A stretch of 64,000 nt of DNA from contig NC_086097.1 of assembly GCF_963921235.1 (NCBI RefSeq), positions 19,408,001 to 19,472,000 of the forward strand. Reading direction: 5' to 3'. Made by a program: the position numbers and the translations under genes. This stretch comes from Mobula hypostoma (taxonomy: Eukaryota). This document shows, one piece after another, positions 2,761 through 53,218 of this stretch (position 1 is its first letter; each line of letters opens with the position of its first letter). The notes under the pieces were generated by a model. That model saw only the letters and a list, made by a program, of their open reading frames with translations, ran no database searches and was not told where the DNA came from.

Positions 2761-4029
2761 TAAAAAAAGTAAAAGCTTCTTGATTAGTCAGGGCATCAAA
2801 GGTTATGGGGAAAAGGCAGGAGAATGAGGTTGAGCAGGATATGATGGAATGGCAGAACAGACCAAATGGCCTAATTTTGCTCCTCTGTCTTATGGTCTCA
2901 TAATGGAAAATGTCTAGCAAGGTGTCTAGTATTTTTTGGACTGCATCTCAAGTGCGTGGGAATGTAGGCTATTGGGCCCTAGTTATGTATTAGCCTTTGC
3001 CCATTAATTCCCATCCTAATACCACTTTTCTTCAGTTCCTCCATCTCACTGGACCATGGGATCTCTAACATTTCTATGAAGTCAGGCTTCCTTTATGAAA
3101 ATAGAAACCAAGTTATTTGTTCAACTGCCCACCATTTCTGTGCTCCTCATTCTAAATTCCCCCTGTTGCTCAGTGTGAGCAGTCTACATTTATCTACACC
3201 AATCTCTTTCCCTTCACATATCTACCGAAGCTTTTATGTTCTCTGCAAGCTTATTCTCATATTCTACTTTCCTCATCCTAATAAATTCCTTGGTCTTCTA
3301 AGCTGTTCCCAGTCCTCGGTTTCCTGTGTTATGCATGCACAGAGAAGGAAATGACAACATAGTAGCATTAAATGTTTTTACTGAGTTATGTATATGCTGG
3401 GTAATTTACTGTCCGGGTGCAACGAACCATGCCCGCTGATATGAAAACATGTGCACATGTGCAAGCCCAGGCAAAAAGAGAGGAACTTCCGCTCATATGA
3501 AGTCCAAACTACTCATAACAGGATCAAATGGCCACATGCGCTTTGGCAACATTCTCACAATCAATCCATTACAGTTCAATCTGATTTATCACCAGTAATA
3601 ATATCACACAAACCATTTTCTCCCATCATCTCCCCAATAAAATTATGCCATCATTATAATATCACACACAGCATCAGCACGTTAATTTCAAAATCACAAT
3701 TATATTGCAATCATTGCTGGTATCATAAACAACACCATCACATTAATATCAGATGGCCATATTAATATCACACTTCACTGCAAGTTAATACGATCATCCC
3801 ATTAATATTTCATCATCTCATTAATACCTCATCATTGATACATGAATATTTCACAAATCATCCTTGTTCTAACACAGAATGAGACAGATGTGGGAACAGA
3901 CACAAATACAGGTGCACAAATACAGAACTCATAGATAAAAGTACACTGGGATAAAACACAAGGAAAAAACCTGTCAAGAGGGTCCCCAGAGACCCCCTCT
4001 CAACCTGTTTGTTGCATTTACTAGGAGCA

Positions 4030-4425: not shown

Positions 4426-5510
4426 GCTTAAAAGGCTTACAAACACTGAGCAAACACTGACCCTGGTGAAGCAACATAGACATTAGCAAGCTGTATTTCT
4501 GTAGTGTCCTTAATGCAGTAAATGCACCCCAAGGACCATTATGAGACAATGGTAGGACAGGTAACTAAAGCTGATTCTGGGCGGCAGGGTATCATGGCTG
4601 CTATAATCACAACCCCACAGCACCAGAGACCCAGGCTCAATCTTGACCTTGGGTGCAGTCTGTATTTGCACATTCTCCCTGTCACCGTGTGGGTTTCCTC
4701 TGGGTGCTGGTGGGTCTCAGCCCAAGATTAACCTTAACCTTCAAATGCTTTGAAGCTTTGGACAATACCTCACTTTTATTTTAATATACAGTATTTCTCT
4801 GTTTGCACATTTTTTAAATAATCTATTTTAATTTACTTGTTTATTTATTATGTTTTATTTTCTTTATTATTTTCCGCTCCCTCTGCTAGATTATGTATTG
4901 CATTGTACTGCTGCTGCAAAGTTAACTAATTTCACGTCACATGCCGGTGATAATAAACCTGATTCTGATTCTGATCCTGAAGATGTCAACTGTTCAATCC
5001 GCAGATGCTGCCTCACCAGCTGAGTTCCTTCAGTGCTTTGTGTGTGTTCCTCTGGATTTCCAACATCGGCAGGATCTCTTGTGTTTATTCCTCTGGGGTC
5101 TCTGGTTTCCTCCCACGTCCCAAACACACGCAAGTTGCTGGGTTAATTGGCTGCCGTGAATTGCCCCCAATGTGTAGGTTTGAGTAAGATCTGGTGGAGG
5201 GGGCATTAGAAGGAGAATTCTATAAATGGGTGGTTTATGACTGGCATGGCCTCAGTGGGCCAAAGTGGGTCTGTTTCCCTGGCGACGACAATGACTCCAA
5301 TCATACACTTCAGGAAGGGGGAGTGGAGGAGTGGTGCCATGCACTTGCTCTATCTACATCAACAATGTTAAGGTTAAGAACTTTAAGTTCCTAAGAGCGA
5401 CTATCACCAATAACCTGTCTTGGTCCAACCACTTTAATGCCTGACTAAGAAAGTTCATCAATGCTTCTACTTCCTCAGGAGGCTAAAGAAACTTGGCATG
5501 TCCCTAGTCA

Positions 5511-26252: not shown

Positions 26253-26490
26253 AACACGAGGTTCTGCGGATGCTGGACAACCACCCTCATTCCATTTTCC
26301 CACCACCTTAACTGAGATAGAGTTCCCCTGGTCCTCACATATCACTCCATAATCCTCCACATCTGACAATGGCTGCCATGTTCAACGGGACCCTACCACC
26401 AAACACATCTTTACGTTGGCTGTTCATTCATTTCCATAGATGCTGCCTGACCTGCTGAGTTCTTCCAGCATTTTGTGTGTGTTGCTCTAC
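26253..26490. mobile_element. Penelope-like fragment with an inverted terminal piece
   Basis: Minus-oriented end aaacacgaggttctgcggatgctgga, then plus-strand gatagagttcccctggtcctcacatatcac ([10 protein letters not shown]) and the family tail gatgctgcctgacctgctgagttc. Confidence 0.7.
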
Positions 26491-34589: not shown

Positions 34590-34828
34590 CCCTCTCTGTG
34601 GTCTCTGCTGCCTTCCAACTTTTCGCCCCCACTCCCGCACCTCTGGCTTCACCTATCACCTTCTGGTGATCCTCCTTCTCCTACCCCCCCCCCCACCTTT
34701 TAATTCTGGCATCTTCCTCCTTCCTTTCTAGTCACGGTGAATGGTCTCGGCCTGAAACGTTGACTGTTTATTCATTTCCATAGATGCTGCCTGACCTGCT
34801 GAGTTCCTCCGGCATTTTGTGTGTGTGT
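34590..34828 (+). mobile_element. Penelope 3' region with a decayed hammerhead motif (34729-34766)
   Basis: tagtc acggtga atggtctcggcct GAAAC GTT gactg plus the family tail; the core is mutated. Confidence 0.7.
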
Positions 34829-37087: not shown

Positions 37088-37957
37088 CAGGTTGAGTACC
37101 CCTTATCCAAAATGCTTGGGGCCGGAAATGCTTCGGATTTTGGAACATATAACAAGATAGCTTGGGATTGCCATCATTTCTGACTGACTTTATGTGCTAC
37201 CAGTAAGGAATCTTTATCTTACACTTGCTCATCACGCATATGTACTTTAAAAACGCAGACAACAGGAATTCTGCAGATGCTGGAAATTCAAGCAACATAC
37301 ATCAAAGTTGCTGGTGAACGCAGCAAGCCAGGCAGCATCTCTAGGAAGAGGTACAGTCGATGTTTCAGGCCGAGACCCTTTGTCAGGACTGACGAAGGGT
37401 CTCGGCCTGAAACGTCAACTGTACCTCTTCCTAGAGATGCTGCCTGGCCTGCAGCGTTCACCAGCAACTTTGATGTGTGTTGCTACACATATGTACTTAA
37501 CTTAATTGTTACATACCATTAATATAATGAAAATATAATGTGTGCAAGGTAGCAAAAGCAGTAACAGCAACATCAGAACCCCTGAATCAGCTGTTGAACA
37601 ACACAAACAACGGCAAACTTTCAGTCTTCACCTACGATGCCATGTTTTGATTAAAAGGTCACAGTACACTGTATTTGTATTCTCCTTTTTTTAGGTTTTA
37701 CGCAAGATATAAAAACAAACAGCATTCTAGACTTGCTCTGGTGTTAGATTGTCATCACGAAGAACTTTGTAAACTTATCAATGAATTTCTCCGCTGTTTC
37801 GTGATCAGCAGTAGTTTTATCTTTAAAATTTTTAAATCTTTGAAAATTTAATGCCATGCCTTTTCTTAAATGCCTGCAACAAGCCTGCTGAATATTCACA
37901 ATTACCTTCAATTTTCAATTCATCGTATTAGAACTTGGCTGGTTTCATGATCAGCAT
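37088..37957 (-). mobile_element. pogo/Tigger DNA transposon relic (Tigger4/MER46-like TIR; Jerky-like transposase fragment)
   Basis: TA followed by TIR caggttgagtacccc-ttatccaaaatgcttggg; minus translation at about 37845-37957 MLIMKPAKF*YDELKIEGNCEYSAGLLQAFKKRHGIKF, a CENP-B-type HTH segment. Confidence 0.8.
37248..37484. mobile_element. Palindromic Penelope-derived insertion with two back-to-back hammerhead motifs
   Basis: Arms 37291-37386 and 37389-37484 (96 bp, 6 mismatches by hand count, 2-nt spacer); TSD acgcatatgtactt 37234-37247 / acacatatgtactt 37485-37498. Confidence 0.9.
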
Positions 37958-41305: not shown

Positions 41306-42071
41306 GATCCCAGGTGAGCTCAATGCCTTTTATACTCAGTTTAGGCAACAGAACATGGAGGCACCTTTACGAACTCCCTCAGCCCCCGACAATCCTGTGA
41401 TTTCATTCTCTGAGCCCACACAAGAGCATCCTTCAGGTGAGTGAATCCACAGAAAGCACCTGGCCCAGGCGGTGTACCTGGCCAAGGACTAAAGATCTGT
41501 AACCAACTGGCTGGAATGTTTCTAACATCTTTAATCTCTCACTTTGGTACCTACCAGCTTCAAGCAGGCTACAGCCATACAGCCCATGAAGAATGTGGTA
41601 ACCTACCTTAATGACTATCATCCAGTGGTATTGTGATGAGGTGTGAAACGAAGCAGGATGGAGCAGGTTACTTTAAGAGAGGGAACTGCATGACCCATCT
41701 GTGGAGGTTCAGATGTTCTGAAGATCCTGTGAGAGGTGTCACTGCCAGCGTAGATTTAACGACGTCAGACCACTCCGTTTTCATACTCCAATTACACAGT
41801 GATTGGAAACTGTCCTGGCAGCATTGCAGGCACTGGAGAGGAACAGTTGAGCCCATGACTTCAAAGGGACAGCAGGAAAAGGGGAAAATGCTTCGGTGTC
41901 TACTTTGGAGTCATCAGGAAGTGACACAGCAAGGAAGTATGAGGAAGCAAGCTAAGTAGATTCTGTTACAAATCAGAAAGTTCAAAGTACATTTATTATC
42001 AAAGCATATATGCAGTATACAGCCCTGAGAGTCATCTTCCCACTGACAGCCATGCAACAAAGAAACGCCAT

Positions 42072-42872
42072 CACGAGGAAATCTGCAGATGCTGGAATTT
42101 CAAGCAACACACATCAAAGTTGCTGGTGAACGCAGCAGGCCAGGCAGCATCTCTAGGAAGGGGTACAGTCGAAGTTTCGGGCCGAGACCCTTCGTCAGGA
42201 CTAACTGAAAGAAGAGCTAGTAAGAGATTTGAAAGTGGGAGGGGGAGGGGGAGATCCAAAATGATAGAAGACAGGAGGGGGAGGGGATGGAGCCAAGAGC
42301 TGGACAGGTGATTGGCAAACACGTTCCAAGAAAGGATATATGGCTGTGATAGCGAGTCTGAGTCAAAATGTGGTTGAAAAGTTGAAGAGCCGAAGAAATT
42401 ACAGACGGGGAGCAGTGAGAGATGGTCTCGGCCCGAAACGTCGACTGTACCTCTTCCTAGAGATGCTGCCTGGCCTGCTGCATTCACCAGCAACTTTGAT
42501 GTGTGTTGCTTGAATTTCCAGCATCTGCAGATTTCCTCGTGTTTGCGTTTTTAAATTCACTACTGTGAAGCCTCTCCTGGTGACACCTACACTGAAGAAG
42601 TTTAAATCTTCTCTTCAACGGGAGTTCAGTGAAACCATTGCTCACTGCTCCCCATCTGTAATTTCTTTGGCTCTTCAACTTTTCGACCACATTTTGACTC
42701 AGACTCGCTATCACAGCCATATATCCTTTCTTGGAACGTGTTTGCCAATCACCTGTCCAGCTCTTGGCTCCATCTCTCCCCCTCCTGTCTTCTCCTATCA
42801 TTTTGGATCTCCCCCTCCCCCTCCCACTTTCAAATCTCTTACTAGCTCTTCTTTCAGTTAGTCCTGACGAAG
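42072..42872. mobile_element. Non-autonomous Penelope-derived hammerhead element: inverted partial copy (42072-42419) plus one complete permuted 449-nt monomer (42424-42872)
   Basis: TSD aagaaacgccat 42060-42071 / aagaaacaccat 42870-42881; both arms share the junction ggaacgtg|tttgccaatc; it sits inside a minus-strand repeat (about 41978-43200). Confidence 0.88.
42166..42203 (-). ncRNA. Minimal type I hammerhead ribozyme motif
   Basis: Reverse complement: tagtc CTGACGA a gggt-ctcg-gccc GAAAC TTC gactg; stems I and II form and the core boxes are intact; helix III carries G>T relative to the family GAAACGTC. Confidence 0.75.
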
Positions 42873-43850
42873 AAACACCATGGAACCTTTTCAAAGAAAA
42901 CATCAAACACCCAACGCACAAAACAAAGAACAAATCACGCAAACGGCAAAAAAGGAGTGAAAAACACAGAATATTAAACATCAAGCCATAGAGTCATTTA
43001 AACAGTCTAGGAATGTTCAATTTAGTTCAGTTCAATATAGTGCTGTGTCGTTTATTGACTGCAGGCCACAGAGCTAGTCTGCTCCAATCAAAATTGCACA
43101 AAATAGCAATAAAAAAAGGAGTAACCAGAAACTAGAAACACATATAACATGAACTGCAGAGTCCAACCACAAACCACAAACAACTACAAAAAGCTGCAGA
43201 CGCTTAAATATCTGGAATATAAGCAGTGCTGTAACCACCCAACAGGTCAGACAGTGCATTAACCTGCAGAGTGCTTCCATGTTTTCAGTTTTTATTTTCG
43301 GAGTTACTGCAGTTGAATTCATGGTGTTTAATGATGCACTAGAAAAATAATGTTTTTGAGCTACAGAAGTAATTGATAAGTGTCATCATTCTGCGATGCA
43401 TTTAAGGTTAACAGTTGCTGTACAGAAAATGTAATAAAAATGTATTTGCAGTGAAGCATAGTAATGGAGATAATTATATTAGGTTGACAGTGGGAGTACA
43501 GTATACAAGCTCAGTTGTGTACGACATCTGTCTGAAGAATTGATCAATGGAAATTATTAGTGACCCTGCATGGATAAATTAGAGCTGTTAAATCCAGTTT
43601 ACAATGAACTGTTCAGATGAGGGAGAGGGAGAGAGAGTCATTGAAAATGATTGTTCAACAGGAGGGATGGATTGAAGTTGAGGCAAGGTGGATGAGTTCA
43701 GTAATTCTAAAATACAAGGTCCTTTGGAAGTTAGAGAACATGTTTATTCACAGTCCGATTCTCTGTAACAGTGGCATTAACCTTTCAGATGTAATAATTG
43801 GAAATGAATCTGCTGGGAAATAGCCAGCATATCAGACAGCAGCCGTGGTG

Positions 43851-48542: not shown

Positions 48543-48677
48543 AAACACAAGAGATTCTACAGGTGCTTGAAATCTTGAGCAAAACACATAAAATACTGGA
48601 GGAGCTGAGCAAACCAGGCAGCATCTATGGAGGGGAATAAACGGTTGACGTTTCAGGCAAGACCCTTCATCAGGACC
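48543..48677 (-). mobile_element. Penelope-derived repeat with hammerhead motif (48642-48677)
   Basis: Reverse complement: ggtc CTGATGA agggtcttgcct GAAACGTC aacc; core boxes intact, stem I imperfect. Confidence 0.75.
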
Positions 48678-50394: not shown

Positions 50395-50530
50395 CAGGAC
50401 TGATGAAGGGTCTTGGCCAAAACATTGGCTCTTTATTCCTCTCCATAGACACTGCCTGACCTGCTGCGCTCCTCCAGCATTTTGTGTGTGTTCCTCTGGA
50501 TTTCCAGCATCTGCAGAACTACTTGTGTTT
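50395..50530 (+). mobile_element. Penelope-derived repeat with a decayed hammerhead motif
   Basis: CTGATGA agggtcttggcc aaaacattg (GAAA box lost) plus the family tail. Confidence 0.7.
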
Positions 50531-51480: not shown

Positions 51481-53092
51481 CACACACACAGAAAACTGGA
51501 GGAACTCAGCAGGACAGGCAGCATTGTTAGGAATGAACAGTCGACGTTTCTCGCCAAGACCCTTCTTCAGGCCTGAGAAGGAAGGGGGAAGATGCCGGAA
51601 TAAAAAGGTGGGCGGGGAGGGGAAAGAGGCTAGCCGGAAGGTGATAGGTGAAGTCTGGTGGATGGGAAAGTTCAAGGGCTGGAGAAGAAGGAATCTGATA
51701 GGAGAGGACAATAGGAGAAAGGGGAGGAGGAGGGGACCCGGGGGAAGCAATAGACAGGTGAGAAGAAGTGAACAGAGAGTGGGGAACAGAGGAAGGTGGG
51801 GTGGAAATTGTTCACCAGAAGGAGAAATCAATATTCTGCCATCAGGTTGGAGGGTGCTACATCATAGGCATCCGTTAGTCTCGTGAGACCATGGATTTGC
51901 GCCTTGGAAGGTTTCCAGGGCGCAGGCCTAGGCAAGGTTACACGGAAGACCGGCAGTTGCCCATGCTGCAAGTCTCCCCTCTCCACGCCACCGATGTTGT
52001 CCAAGGGAAGGGCACTAGGGCCGATACAGCTTGGCACTGGTGTCGCAGAGCAATGTGTGGTTAAGTGCCTTGCTCAAGGACACAACACGCTACCTCAGCT
52101 GAGGCTCAAACTAGCGACCTTCAGATCACTAGACCGATGCCTTAACCACTTGGCCACATGCCAACACTACACAGATGGAATATAAGGTGCTGCTCCTTCA
52201 TCCTTAGGGTGGCCTCATCTTGACACAAGAGGAGGCCATGGATCGACAAATCGGAATGGGAAAGGGAATCGGAATTAAAATATTTGGCCACCAGGATGTC
52301 CCACTTGTGGCAGATGGTGTGGAGGTGTTCGACAAAGCTGTCTCCCAATTTACGATGAGCCTCACCAATGTAGAGCACACCTCATCAGGAGCACCGGACA
52401 CAATAGAAGATACCAGCAGATTCGAAGGTGAAGTGTTGCCTCACCTGAGAGGACTGTTTGGGGCTCTGAATGGAGTTGAGGGAGGAGATGTATGGGCAGG
52501 TGTAGCACTTGGGCCACTTGCAGATAGGGAGATAGGGTGGGAAGAGATAGGGCAGGATAACCTTATAAGCTTCTAAAAGATGTCGGTTCACAGTTTGCCT
52601 CCAGAGATGGAGACAGAGAGGTCACAAAAGGGGAGAGGGGTGTCAGAGATGGACCAAGTAAATTTAAGGACAGGGTGGAAGTTAGAGGCAAAATTGATAA
52701 AACTGACAAGCTCAGCACGGGTGCATGAAACAGTGCCAATGTCGTCGTCATTGACGCTGAGGAAGAGTTAGGGAGTATAACCGGAGAAAGCTTTGAACAG
52801 AGACTGAAGATGAAGAGGCGGGCATAGCTTGTGCCAATGCGAGTGCCCATGCCTACCCCGTCTGGTTTGGAGATAGTGGAAGGGGCTGAGGGAAAAATTA
52901 TTTAGGGTGAGGACCAGTTCTGCCAGACGGAGGAGGCTGGTGGTGGAGGGGAATTGGATGGTTCTTTTGTCAAGAAAGAGGCCTTCCTGGTGGGGAATAG
53001 AAGTGTATAGGGACTGAACATCCATGGTGAAGACAAGGCGGTCAGGGCCAGGGAATTGAATGTCACTGAGAAGATTGAGGCATCAGAAGTGT
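51481..53092 (-). mobile_element. Penelope-like element (RT + Cys-rich linker + GIY-YIG endonuclease + 3' hammerhead), internally deleted
   Basis: MDVQSLYTSIPH, LAELVLTLNNF, MGTRIGTSYA (PLE RT); CKWPKCYTCPY...IFYCVRCS; LYIGEAHRKLGDSFVEH...EQHLIFHL (GIY-YIG); HHR at 51538-51575 reads caggc CTGAAGA agggtcttggcga GAAACGTC gactg on the minus strand. Confidence 0.92.
51861..52167 (-). mobile_element. tRNA-derived SINE with a CORE-like body, inserted in the Penelope element
   Basis: Minus strand: A box TGGCCAAGTGG (52146-52156), B-box-like GTTTGAGCC, then tgtgtccttgagcaaggcacttaacc (CORE-like); the Penelope sequence resumes on both sides. Confidence 0.8.
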
Positions 53093-53218
53093 CAGAATCA
53101 GAATCAGGTTTATTATCACCGCCGTGTGCCATGAAATTTGTTAACTTAGCAGCAGCAGTTCAATGTAACACATGGTAATATAGAAAGAAAAATAAATAAC
53201 AGTAAGTAGATATATGTA

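What the first reader, a model, noticed from the sequence alone, without database searches (positions are those of the whole stretch)
42072..42872. Exact unit-length circularly permuted 449-nt hammerhead element: candidate retrozyme-like circular RNA derived from Penelope
Seen: the plus arm starts inside ribozyme stem II (42424 ggtctcggcccGAAACGTCgactg) and ends at ...tagtcCTGACGAag (42872). Joining end to start gives an intact type I hammerhead, tagtc-CTGACGA-agggtctcggccc-GAAACGTC-gactg, with no base gained or lost; the last 3 nt (aag) overlap the TSD, so there is a 3-nt ambiguity. The inverted arm (42072-42419) reads straight across that ribozyme. Both arms carry the same fusion (ggaacgtg|tttgccaatc) of a probable Penelope ORF start (...TRYHSHISFLGTC) to Penelope-like 3'UTR, so the deletion was already in the template. 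A 12-bp TSD indicates one insertion event. Known: Penelope-like elements carry minimal type I HHRs, and animal non-LTR retrozymes are small non-coding HHR repeats that form circRNAs. Inference: a roughly 449-nt self-cleaving RNA, circular or multimeric, is copied by a Penelope RT. This would be a direct Penelope-to-retrozyme intermediate.
Basis: partly seen in the sequence, partly recalled or inferred. Interest (0 to 1): 0.85.

Follow-up and report, generated by a model that had tools for sequence, protein, structure and literature searches.

The report
Dead mini-copy of a Penelope retrotransposon
This is one old, broken insertion of a Penelope-like jumping gene that lost its protein-coding middle, laid down in the head-to-head, permuted layout that is normal for such elements, so it is mostly ordinary and shows no sign of being a self-propagating circular-RNA element.

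Summary
Window 42072-42872 is one insertion with an 11/12 target-site duplication. It has an inverted arm that reads 208->449->1->118/127 and a plus arm that reads 1->449. Joining the plus arm's end to its start gives exactly the contiguous minimal hammerhead seen in 46 of 46 distinct family copies.

- The hammerhead module is the pseudo-LTR of a Penelope-like element (PLE). Its 17-nt core occurs 83,478 times in this 3.48-Gb genome.
- I found the 3.5-kb parent, which encodes a reverse transcriptase (RT) and a GIY-YIG endonuclease.
- Permutation, a head-to-head inverted arm, 11-16-bp duplications and two 3'-end classes about 40 nt apart (the "tail") are the published norm for PLEs.
- The 317|318 fusion occurs only in the two arms of this locus (2 hits genome-wide, even with 3 mismatches allowed), so this 449-nt variant never amplified.
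- About 20 other short derivatives carry 18 or more different deletion junctions.
- No run is on record as RNA, and Rfam finds no hammerhead.
- Retrozymes as PLE derivatives are already in print (bioRxiv 2026; NAR 2020).

Two things remain curious. The plus arm is exactly one unit long and ends at a rare site, and a second locus (L095) also has an exactly unit-length arm.

This scan has filed similar PLE-type hammerhead repeats on other DNA as known kinds.

Verdict: new member of a known kind, modest interest.

The parts
42060..42071 (.). Left copy of the target-site duplication (aagaaacgccat)
   Evidence: It matches 42870-42881 at 11 of 12 positions. Its last 9 nt also pair 7/9 with unit positions 119-127, a possible priming microhomology.
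42072..42429 (-). Inverted arm. On the minus strand it reads unit positions 208->449, then 1->118 (127 if the microhomology is counted). Its 3' end lies at the family's distal end class.
42166..42203 (-). Contiguous minimal type I hammerhead motif, with G->T in the helix III palindrome (GAAACUUC)
   Evidence: Sequence read. Alignment to 46 family copies. No Rfam hit.
42310..42329 (-). ORF-deletion fusion in the inverted arm, junction at 42319|42320
   Evidence: one of only two occurrences in the genome.
42424..42429 (.). Junction microhomology GGTYTC, shared by the 5' ends of the two arms
   Evidence: In one search, pair I1 runs to 42429 while the plus arm starts at 42424.
42424..42872 (+). 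Plus arm, unit positions 1->449: exactly one unit. Its 3' end is at the rare 449 site, not at the usual ~85 or ~125.
   Evidence: It is 1 of 41 sampled arms that end at 449.
42424..42447 (+). 3' part of the split hammerhead (rest of helix II, GAAAC, GUC|GACUG). Predicted cut at 42442|42443.
   Evidence: read against the min-HHR description.
42580..42740 (+). Remnant of the PLE ORF N-terminus (about 53 codons). The parent's ATG reads ACA here.
   Evidence: parent frame ...VMPTLKKF...TRYLSHISFLGTC; tblastn of P0009 residues 43-100 to parent nt 160-333, E 3e-4.
42731..42750 (+). ORF-deletion fusion in the plus arm, junction at 42740|42741. Parent position 317 is joined to the last 132 nt of the 3' UTR.
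42859..42872 (+). 5' part of the split hammerhead (helix I strand tagtc, CUGACGA, ag)
42870..42881 (.). Right copy of the target-site duplication (aagaaacaccat). Its first 3 nt overlap the arm end.
   Evidence: The same (G)AAG overlap is seen in L046, L082 and L087.

Best explanation
This is an old, inactive product of a single retrotransposition event by a canonical endonuclease-positive Penelope-like element (PLE).

Shown by tool results:
- The parent is a ~3.5-kb unit: 1-317, then ~3.05 kb encoding RT and GIY-YIG, then 318-449. It is flanked by pseudo-LTRs that carry a minimal hammerhead.
- The window copy lacks the ~3-kb coding middle.
- Its layout is two head-to-head arms with their 3' ends pointing outward, an 11/12 TSD of 12 bp, and one arm ending at the distal 3'-end class. 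This is the family's normal layout.

Inferred:
- The deletion arose in the event that made this locus, most likely by an RT template jump between the short direct repeats CATATATCCTTT (left) and CATATCCCTTTT (right).
- One arm was then copied from the other's cDNA precursor, or both arms from one RNA molecule. The two outward ends were primed or joined at the two nicks of the target, and the inner ends annealed through the GGTYTC microhomology. This resembles twin priming or snap-back second-strand synthesis.
- The exact one-unit length of the plus arm is most probably a coincidence of a rare recurrent end site at ...CUGAYGAAG, with a 3-nt microhomology to the target, and a variable 5' end.

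The hammerhead here is a passenger of the pseudo-LTR. Neither copy at this locus can act on its own: one is split across the arm ends and the other is mutated.
For: Family size. The hammerhead core 17-mer occurs 83,478 times and the 27-45 anchor 82,714 times.

Parent. L032 is mapped. It carries RT motifs (KIHKP..PGRPIVS, YIDD) and the endonuclease motif IYCVRCSQCGLLYIGETRRRLGDCFAEHL. GIY-YIG scores E 0.011 on the broken piece. Homologues of P0002 number 165 at E<=1e-10, and most of the 120 listed carry PF00078 and many carry PF01541. P0014 scans as RVT_1 plus GIY-YIG.

3' ends. Of 41 distinct arms, 24 end at 74-94, 12 at 121-140 and 5 elsewhere. This matches the 30-40-nt 'tail' between two RT start sites (Frangieh 2024).

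Head-to-head pairs are the norm (listing; Craig 2021). The window holds a second example at 37246-37492, with an 11-bp TSD.

The junction is unique to this locus: 2 hits, both here, even with up to 3 mismatches in a 27-mer. Other short derivatives show 18 or more different junctions. The parent's left junction occurs 630 times.

Other arms that end at 449 vary widely in length (about 15, 27, 41, 41, 58, 129, 259, ~480 and ~510 nt). Where the partner's end could be read (8 cases, the window included), it lay at 117-130 in 7 and at 85 in 1.

Age. The arms differ by 13 substitutions in about 367 nt.
Against: - The plus arm's exact unit length is not predicted by this model. Given a free 5' end, the chance of landing within +-3 nt is about 1.5%.
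- A second head-to-head short derivative, L095, also has an arm of exactly one unit (85->...->85/86; unit 398 nt; perfect 12-bp TSD). A systematic process could therefore be at work.
- Breaks at 449 are about four times commoner than at a control position: about 13 real among 24 hits (5 expected by the reversed-pattern control) against about 3 real among 10 hits. The counts are small, and I classified hits as real by eye.
- The plus arm contains unit positions 128-207, which the inverted arm lacks. The plus arm therefore cannot simply be a snap-back copy of the inverted arm as it stands now.
- The clustering of deletion junctions may owe something to how the loci were sampled, since they were the best matches to the 449-nt query.
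- I could not test whether the master copy was lost rather than never existing.
Confidence: 0.78

Rival explanations
1. Retrozyme-like route. A 449-nt RNA was cut out by the hammerhead, ligated into a circle and copied once round by the PLE RT, which stopped on meeting its own start. That would give an exactly unit-length, permuted arm. The other arm would be a second priming on the same circle or on a multimer.
For: - The plus arm is exactly one unit.
- Both arms cross or abut the 449|1 join.
- L095 shows a second unit-length arm, starting and ending at the proximal 3'-end class.
- Animal retrozymes of 170-400 nt form circRNAs, and PLEs are the proposed mobilisers (Cervera & de la Pena 2020, passages).
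Against: - A gene-encoded circle needs a transcribed master with two hammerheads flanking this deletion, and no other copy of the junction exists in the 3.48-Gb assembly.
- The arm does not start or end at the hammerhead cut site (19|20).
- None of the 100 listed copies has a 5' end at that site, and in vitro the PLE uses unprocessed RNA (Frangieh 2024).
- Min-HHRs cleave poorly in vitro.
- The permutation itself is explained by the pseudo-LTR layout.
- Other arms that end at 449 have arbitrary lengths.
Confidence: 0.1
2. A linear unit-length RNA or DNA intermediate. A molecule longer than one unit (a tandem transcript, or its cDNA or duplex) is cut twice at the same sequence motif in successive repeats: 449|1 at the base of helix II here, and the proximal RT site 85|86 in L095. 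The unit-length piece is then inserted or inverted.
For: - There are two unit-length arms whose ends coincide with recurrent end sites.
- Frangieh 2024 reports that RNA-seq read ends fall on the RT initiation sites and that the Penelope endonuclease recognises an element fragment containing the tail.
- L006 also starts exactly at position 1.
Against: - No known activity cuts at 449|1.
- Only 2 of about 44 sampled arms start at position 1.
- The enrichment of breaks at 449 is modest and rests on small counts.
Confidence: 0.07
3. Two separate insertions, one nested next to the other, or a later inversion or deletion produced the layout.
For: The family is so abundant (about one hammerhead core per 42 kb) that adjacent insertions do occur. 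L072 is an example.
Against: - A single 11/12 TSD brackets the whole 801 bp.
- Both arms carry a junction found nowhere else.
- The same two-arm layout with one TSD recurs in L046, L082, L087, L095 and at window 37246-37492.
Confidence: 0.04

Closest known systems
Endonuclease-positive Penelope-like elements (Penelope/Poseidon and Neptune type) with pseudo-LTRs carrying minimal hammerheads (Cervera & de la Pena 2014, PMC4209133; Craig et al. 2021, PMC8557442; Frangieh et al. 2024, PMC11167929)
   Same: - RT plus C-terminal GIY-YIG parent.
- Partial-tandem pseudo-LTR.
- Inverted 5'-truncated copy placed head to head.
- A ~40-nt 'tail' arising from two 3'-end classes.
- AT-rich targets.
- A min-HHR with a short helix I, a bulged base before helix II and no helix III loop.
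   Different: - This copy has lost about 3 kb of ORF.
- One arm ends at a rare site (449) instead of at a usual 3' end.
- In the anole element the ORF starts at helix II, whereas here the ATG lies about 157 nt downstream of it, beyond both 3'-end classes.
Animal non-LTR retrozymes (Cervera & de la Pena 2020, PMC7229834; Li, Clavereau & Pollet 2026, bioRxiv 10.64898/2026.07.22.740005)
   Same: - A small non-coding unit with a type I hammerhead.
- Homology to PLE pseudo-LTRs.
- TSDs longer than 4 bp.
- Related short units occasionally occur in tandem (L005, 2.35 units).
   Different: - This variant is a singleton with no array and no amplification.
- It still carries 5' UTR and ORF-start sequence.
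- The hammerhead is the minimal PLE type, not the canonical type found in retrozymes.
- No circular or linear RNA has been shown.
L1 twin-priming inversions (term as in PMC2837659, search listing only; the original description is recalled, not read)
   Same: An inverted 5' part and a direct 3' part flanked by one TSD, with microhomology at the inner junction.
   Different: - A different RT clade.
- Here the arms overlap in content and cross a repeat join.
- The PLE enzyme is reported to nick and extend both strands.
Non-autonomous PLEs of the Chlamys group, e.g. MRC1 (Craig et al. 2021, passage read)
   Same: Short derivatives that keep the PLE termini, form pseudo-LTRs and head-to-tail copies, and depend on an autonomous partner.
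   Different: Those are amplifying families in green algae. Here the short derivatives are sporadic, with a different junction at nearly every locus.

Membership tests
Penelope-like element (EN+), derived copy | [quoted passage not shown] | tested here: met
   - RT and endonuclease motifs in L032.
- GIY-YIG at E 0.011, 16.5 bits, below the 22.6 cut-off, on the broken piece.
- P0001 and P0002 alone give no Pfam hit.
- Homologues at 41-66% identity carry PF00078 and PF01541.
- P0014 scores RVT_1 29.4 bits (cut-off 29.6) and GIY-YIG 25.0 bits (cut-off 22.6).
Penelope-like element (EN+), derived copy | Pseudo-LTR from partial tandem copies | tested here: met
   L032 has 466-nt terminal repeats at 92% identity. 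Copies read x-449|1-449|1-~85/125.
Penelope-like element (EN+), derived copy | Inverted 5'-truncated copy adjacent at the 5' end | tested here: met
   Seen at the window locus, in L003, L007, L013, L017, L019, L023 and L027, and as 10 (-,+) pairs within 1 kb among 100 listed cores.
Penelope-like element (EN+), derived copy | A 30-40-nt 'tail': two alternative 3' ends | tested here: met
   24 of 41 arms end at 74-94 and 12 of 41 at 121-140.
Hammerhead ribozyme, type I (Rfam RF00163) | Match to the covariance model | tested here: not met
   No hammerhead hit in the window at gathering score, at E<=10 over 41900-43000, or in 6 other loci. This is expected for a motif with no helix III hairpin.
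Minimal PLE hammerhead (min-HHR, Cervera & de la Pena 2014) | Core CUGANGA...GAAA, A15.1-U16.1, H17, helices I and II, and a palindrome allowing a dimeric helix III | tested here: met
   Read. Helix I has 5 bp and helix II 4 bp with one bulged A, and the palindrome is ACGU. The monomer's minimum-energy fold instead pairs GACG with CGUC, with z = -0.07 against shuffles.
Minimal PLE hammerhead (min-HHR) | Self-cleavage | not testable with these tools
   Needs transcription of monomer and dimer constructs. The published min-HHRs cleave weakly or need the protein.
Animal non-LTR retrozyme | Small non-coding unit with a type I hammerhead | tested here: met
   A 449-nt unit with no intact ORF and a min-HHR.
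Animal non-LTR retrozyme | Multi-copy family in tandem arrays | tested here: not met
   This junction gives 2 hits, both at this locus. Among relatives, one junction type gives 7 exact hits at 4 loci, and the longest array seen is 2.35 units (L005).
Animal non-LTR retrozyme | Expressed as linear and circular RNA | not testable with these tools
   None of the 24 listed runs is on record as RNA, and all are kept as contigs.

The most novel reading that the evidence does not exclude
The locus, together with L095, would be a genomic footprint of the birth of a retrozyme-like unit. In this reading the PLE RT deletes its own ORF by a template jump. It then copies, or cuts out, exactly one unit from a circular or twice-cut intermediate. 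Unit-length hammerhead mini-elements would therefore be generated de novo again and again, rather than descending from one founder.
Probability: 0.1. Interest if true: 0.65.

Novelty: new member of a known kind. Interest (0 to 1): 0.3.

Why it matters
As it stands, this is routine transposon annotation: a dead, internally deleted Penelope-like copy in a genome that holds more than 83,000 copies of the same hammerhead-bearing terminus.

It has some value as a worked example. Permuted, inverted hammerhead repeats in animal genomes should first be read as the normal PLE insertion layout, not as evidence for circular RNA.

The side observations could help people who work on the still poorly understood PLE integration cycle and on the origin of animal retrozymes. 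They are: many independent ORF deletions with junctions clustered at the same two short repeats; a rare end site at the base of hammerhead helix II, whose head-to-head partner arm ended at the distal 3'-end class in 7 of the 8 pairs where it could be read; and two exactly unit-length arms. All three rest on small samples.

Tried and rejected
- RNA evidence. No RNA holder is listed: 24 runs from 14 studies, none on record as RNA and all kept as contigs. Laying X1, X3, X19 and X9 showed the 449|1 join in contigs of all four runs (9, 15, 22 and 9 contigs for 'goes back 449'). It also showed far higher summed word depth over 19-126 and 325-449 than over 127-324. Contigs cannot show RNA ends, strand or circles, and the join also exists in genomic DNA, so this says nothing about expression.\n- Rfam. 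There were three scans without a hammerhead hit. The microRNA and snoRNA 'hits' in L003 are artefacts of its long inverted repeat.\n- Pfam. The broken parent ORF pieces gave 0 families at E<=0.01 and at E<=10 for P0001 and P0002. Membership was settled through homologues.\n- Hammerhead-cut templates. I looked for 5' ends at the cut site (position 20) and found 0 among 100 listed copies. The filter used would miss about half of random flanks. Two single cases exist (L007 and L087).\n- Fraction of deletion derivatives. On contig C1, 29 of 52 hits for the 283-303 region have the exact parent junction next to them (my cross-reading). The other 23 could be mutated parents or derivatives, so the result is inconclusive.\n- Splicing as the cause of the deletion. 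I rejected this because the junctions differ from locus to locus and lack GT..AG.\n- Simple snap-back of the present inverted arm.

Full report
**1. The observation**

The window is G000:C1:19408001-19472000 of a 3.48-Gb, 200-contig eukaryotic assembly.

The repeat finder reports three inverted pairs at 92-95% complementarity. They show that the left arm (42063/72-42429), read on the minus strand, equals 42631-42872 followed by 42424-42541/50. It is therefore a circular permutation of the plus arm 42424-42872 (449 nt) and crosses that arm's end-to-start join.

In what follows I number the plus arm 1-449. The inverted arm then reads 208->449->1->118, or ->127 if a 7/9 match to the flank is counted.

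The join ...CCTGACGAAG|GGTCTCGGCCCGAAACGTC|GACTG is exactly the contiguous sequence in 46 of 46 distinct copies from other loci (56 BLAST rows). No base is gained or lost.

The motif has every hammerhead core position, a 5-bp helix I, a 4-bp helix II with one bulged A before it, and an ACGU palindrome in place of a helix III hairpin. This is the 'min-HHR' described for Penelope-like elements (PLEs), thought to act as a dimer (passages of PMC4209133).

Rfam does not report it in the window or in six other loci. The monomer's minimum-energy fold is no more stable than those of shuffled sequences (z = -0.07).

Corrections to the finding:
- The TSD is 11/12.
- The inverted arm's hammerhead has G->T in the palindrome.
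- The two arms differ by 13 substitutions and 4 gap columns in 370 columns, so the insertion is old and neither hammerhead copy here is usable.

**2. What the element is**

A search of the window's own genome with the 449-nt arm gave 3,252 first-look candidates, of which 40 were scored, giving 95 matches. Two patterns stood out.
- Copies that read x-449|1-449|1-~85 or ~125.
- Copies that read 400-449|1-317 and stop at 317, which is the 'fusion' point.

Extending three of the second kind showed a ~3.5-kb unit on L032: 1-317, then about 3.05 kb, then 318-449, followed by 1-123. It has 466-nt terminal direct repeats at 92% identity.

Its degraded reading frames carry KIHKP...PGRPIVS and YIDD and IYCVRCSQCGLLYIGETRRRLGDCFAEHL. 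Pfam sees only a weak GIY-YIG match on the broken piece (E 0.011, below cut-off). However, 165 longer proteins match P0002 at E<=1e-10. Most of the 120 listed carry PF00078 and many carry PF01541, and P0014 scans as RVT_1 plus GIY-YIG. The parent is a canonical endonuclease-positive PLE.

tblastn of full-length homologues places the RT at parent nt ~1014-2702 and the endonuclease at ~2884-3186. It also aligns P0009 residues 43-100 to nt 160-333 (E 3e-4). The right side is the last 132 nt of the 3' UTR.

**3. The layout is the family's norm**

Published descriptions say that PLE insertions are 5'-truncated, form partial tandems (pseudo-LTRs), and often have an inverted 5'-truncated copy adjacent at the 5' end. 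They also carry a 30-40-bp 'tail' at one end (Craig 2021, passages). The anole enzyme nicks and extends both DNA strands and starts reverse transcription at two internal RNA sites, and the interval between those sites is the tail (Frangieh 2024, main text read).

In this genome:
- Of 41 distinct arms in 30 loci, 24 end at 74-94, 12 at 121-140 and 5 elsewhere. Before counting I dropped three duplicate rows, because L009 is the same locus as L005 and L018 the same as L013. I also dropped three rows that stop at 317 only because the query does.
- In head-to-head pairs, one arm usually ends in each class (L003 86/132, L007 74/134, L017 77/122, L019 130/85).
- Copies longer than one unit tend to begin at 404-443.
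- Among the first 100 listed sites of the hammerhead core, I count 10 (-,+) pairs within 1 kb, no (+,-) pair and one same-strand pair.
- The window itself holds a second, tiny example at 37246-37492. Its arms read 440->132 and 441->87, its TSD is CATATGTACTT, and its inner junction is palindromic. L092-L094 are similar.

The core 17-mer occurs 83,478 times and a second anchor (27-45) 82,714 times. The parent's left junction occurs 630 times.

Permutation plus an inverted arm is therefore not evidence for a circle.

**4. The 449-nt variant is a singleton**

The fusion 22-mer occurs twice in the genome, namely in the two arms of this locus. The result is the same for a 27-mer with up to 3 mismatches.

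The other loci that aligned over the full 449 nt have different junctions. I count at least 18 junction types among about 20 independent loci. All lie within about 25 nt on either side, between the short direct repeats CATATATCCTTT and CATATCCCTTTT. One type (TCTTGGYCCTTTTGCC) has 7 exact hits at 4 loci. L005 is a 2.35-unit tandem.

Short derivatives thus arise repeatedly and amplify little. Because the loci were the best matches to my query, the tightness of the junction cluster may be partly a sampling effect.

A junction that exists nowhere else yet sits in both arms means one of three things. Both arms may come from one RNA molecule, one arm may have been copied from the other's cDNA precursor, or a master copy may have been lost. 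This argues against a gene-encoded, propagating retrozyme-like RNA.

**5. What stays odd**

The plus arm ends at 449, the only one of the 41 sampled arms to do so, and it is exactly one unit long.

Pattern searches show that ends at 449 recur but are rare. There were 24 hits, against 5 expected by the reversed-pattern control, and by eye about 13 are true element-to-flank breaks. At control position 43 there were 10 hits, of which about 3 are true.

I hold 12 such arms: the window, L046, L048/L064, L050/L065, L058, L069, L072, L076, L081, L082, L086 and L087.
- Nine have a head-to-head partner.
- In eight of those the partner's end could be read. It was 117-130 in seven and 85 in one.
- L048/L064 shows no partner. 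L058 and L081 were not resolved.
- TSDs of 11-16 bp that overlap the terminal (G)AAG are seen in L046, L082, L087 and the window. My quick check found none in L065, L069, L072 or L076.
- The 449-ending arms range from about 15 to about 510 nt, which favours coincidence for the window's 449 nt.

However, L095 is a head-to-head short derivative that I fetched only because of its spacing. It has a perfect 12-bp TSD and its own junction (317|369) in both arms. One of its arms runs 85->...->85/86, which is again exactly one unit, of 398 nt. I put the chance of that at roughly 3-5%.

Three things could produce such arms: a once-round copy of a circle, a linear unit bounded by two cuts at the same motif, or plain coincidence. 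Frangieh 2024 reports RNA-seq read ends at the RT start sites, which fits the second possibility.

Ends at the hammerhead cut site are not enriched (0 of 100 listed copies).

**6. Comparison and verdict**

The locus works like, and is a member of, the PLE family as a non-autonomous, internally deleted copy. It resembles animal non-LTR retrozymes in being a small, non-coding, hammerhead-bearing, PLE-related unit. It fails their defining multi-copy tandem feature, and its expression could not be tested.

The idea that retrozymes are PLE derivatives is already in print. Li, Clavereau & Pollet 2026 (abstract, first part of the Results and the Discussion read) include one cartilaginous fish. Cervera & de la Pena 2020 (passages) name PLEs as the likely mobilisers. 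My two literature searches found no description of recurrent ORF-deletion junctions or of unit-length arms. bioRxiv supplements could not be seen and may bear on this.

Verdict: new member of a known kind, interest about 0.3. I give about 10% to the reading that this locus and L095 record repeated de novo generation of unit-length hammerhead mini-elements.

Noticed in passing
window 37246-37492: A second, tiny head-to-head PLE insertion. The minus arm reads 440->449->132 and the plus arm 441->449->87. The TSD is CATATGTACTT. The inner junction is a near-perfect palindrome at GTCAGGAC|TGAC, as expected if a cDNA that ended just upstream of the hammerhead core snapped back on itself.
   Followed up: partly
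L002-L027 (own genome), unit positions ~295-335: At least 18 different ORF-deletion junctions occur among about 20 independent short derivatives. All fall between the short direct repeats CATATATCCTTT and CATATCCCTTTT that flank the ~3-kb coding region. This suggests recurrent template jumps, although sampling bias is possible.
   Followed up: partly
L095 = G000:C1:164904250-164905800: A head-to-head short derivative with a perfect 12-bp TSD (CCATCAATGCTG). It has its own junction (317|369) in both arms. One arm runs 85->...->85/86, exactly one 398-nt unit, and the other runs 431->unit->121.
   Followed up: partly
L046, L065, L069, L072, L076, L082, L087 (own genome): A rare class of arms ends at ...CTGAYGAAG, at the base of hammerhead helix II. 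In each of these loci the arm is one half of a head-to-head pair. The partner ended at the distal 3'-end class (117-130) in 7 of the 8 cases read (these seven loci plus the window). Several have an 11-16-bp TSD that overlaps (G)AAG.
   Followed up: partly
L070, L080, L083 (own genome): Three copies read GAAG|CCYRAAAC. They have lost the 8 nt of the helix II 5' strand and loop, as if the polymerase skipped the hairpin. Many other copies have 2-3 substituted or extra bases exactly at the 449|1 point.
   Followed up: no
whole genome G000: The hammerhead core 17-mer TTAGTCCTGAYRAAGGG occurs 83,478 times, about once per 42 kb. This makes the PLE terminus one of the most abundant repeats in the genome.
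   Followed up: yes
window 52167-53094: A degraded fragment on the minus strand matches the parent's RT region at 69-71% identity. It is probably an older or different PLE family. Weak tail-like matches (72-84%) also lie at 1030-1155, 5003-5086, 26438-26486, 34743-34826, 48543-48658 and 50438-50530.
   Followed up: no
L003:2098-2298: The long, nearly perfect inverted repeat of a head-to-head insertion gives sub-threshold Rfam hits to plant microRNA and snoRNA models (MIR1523 at 48.5 bits against a gathering score of 96). These are artefacts of the hairpin, not RNA genes.
   Followed up: no
window 42424-42960 in runs X1, X3, X19, X9: Contigs from runs labelled with several different coded organisms hold the pseudo-LTR part of the unit. 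In X9 the middle part (127-324) has almost no cover. A sub-family with a different sequence upstream of 42500 is common (loose ends).
   Followed up: no
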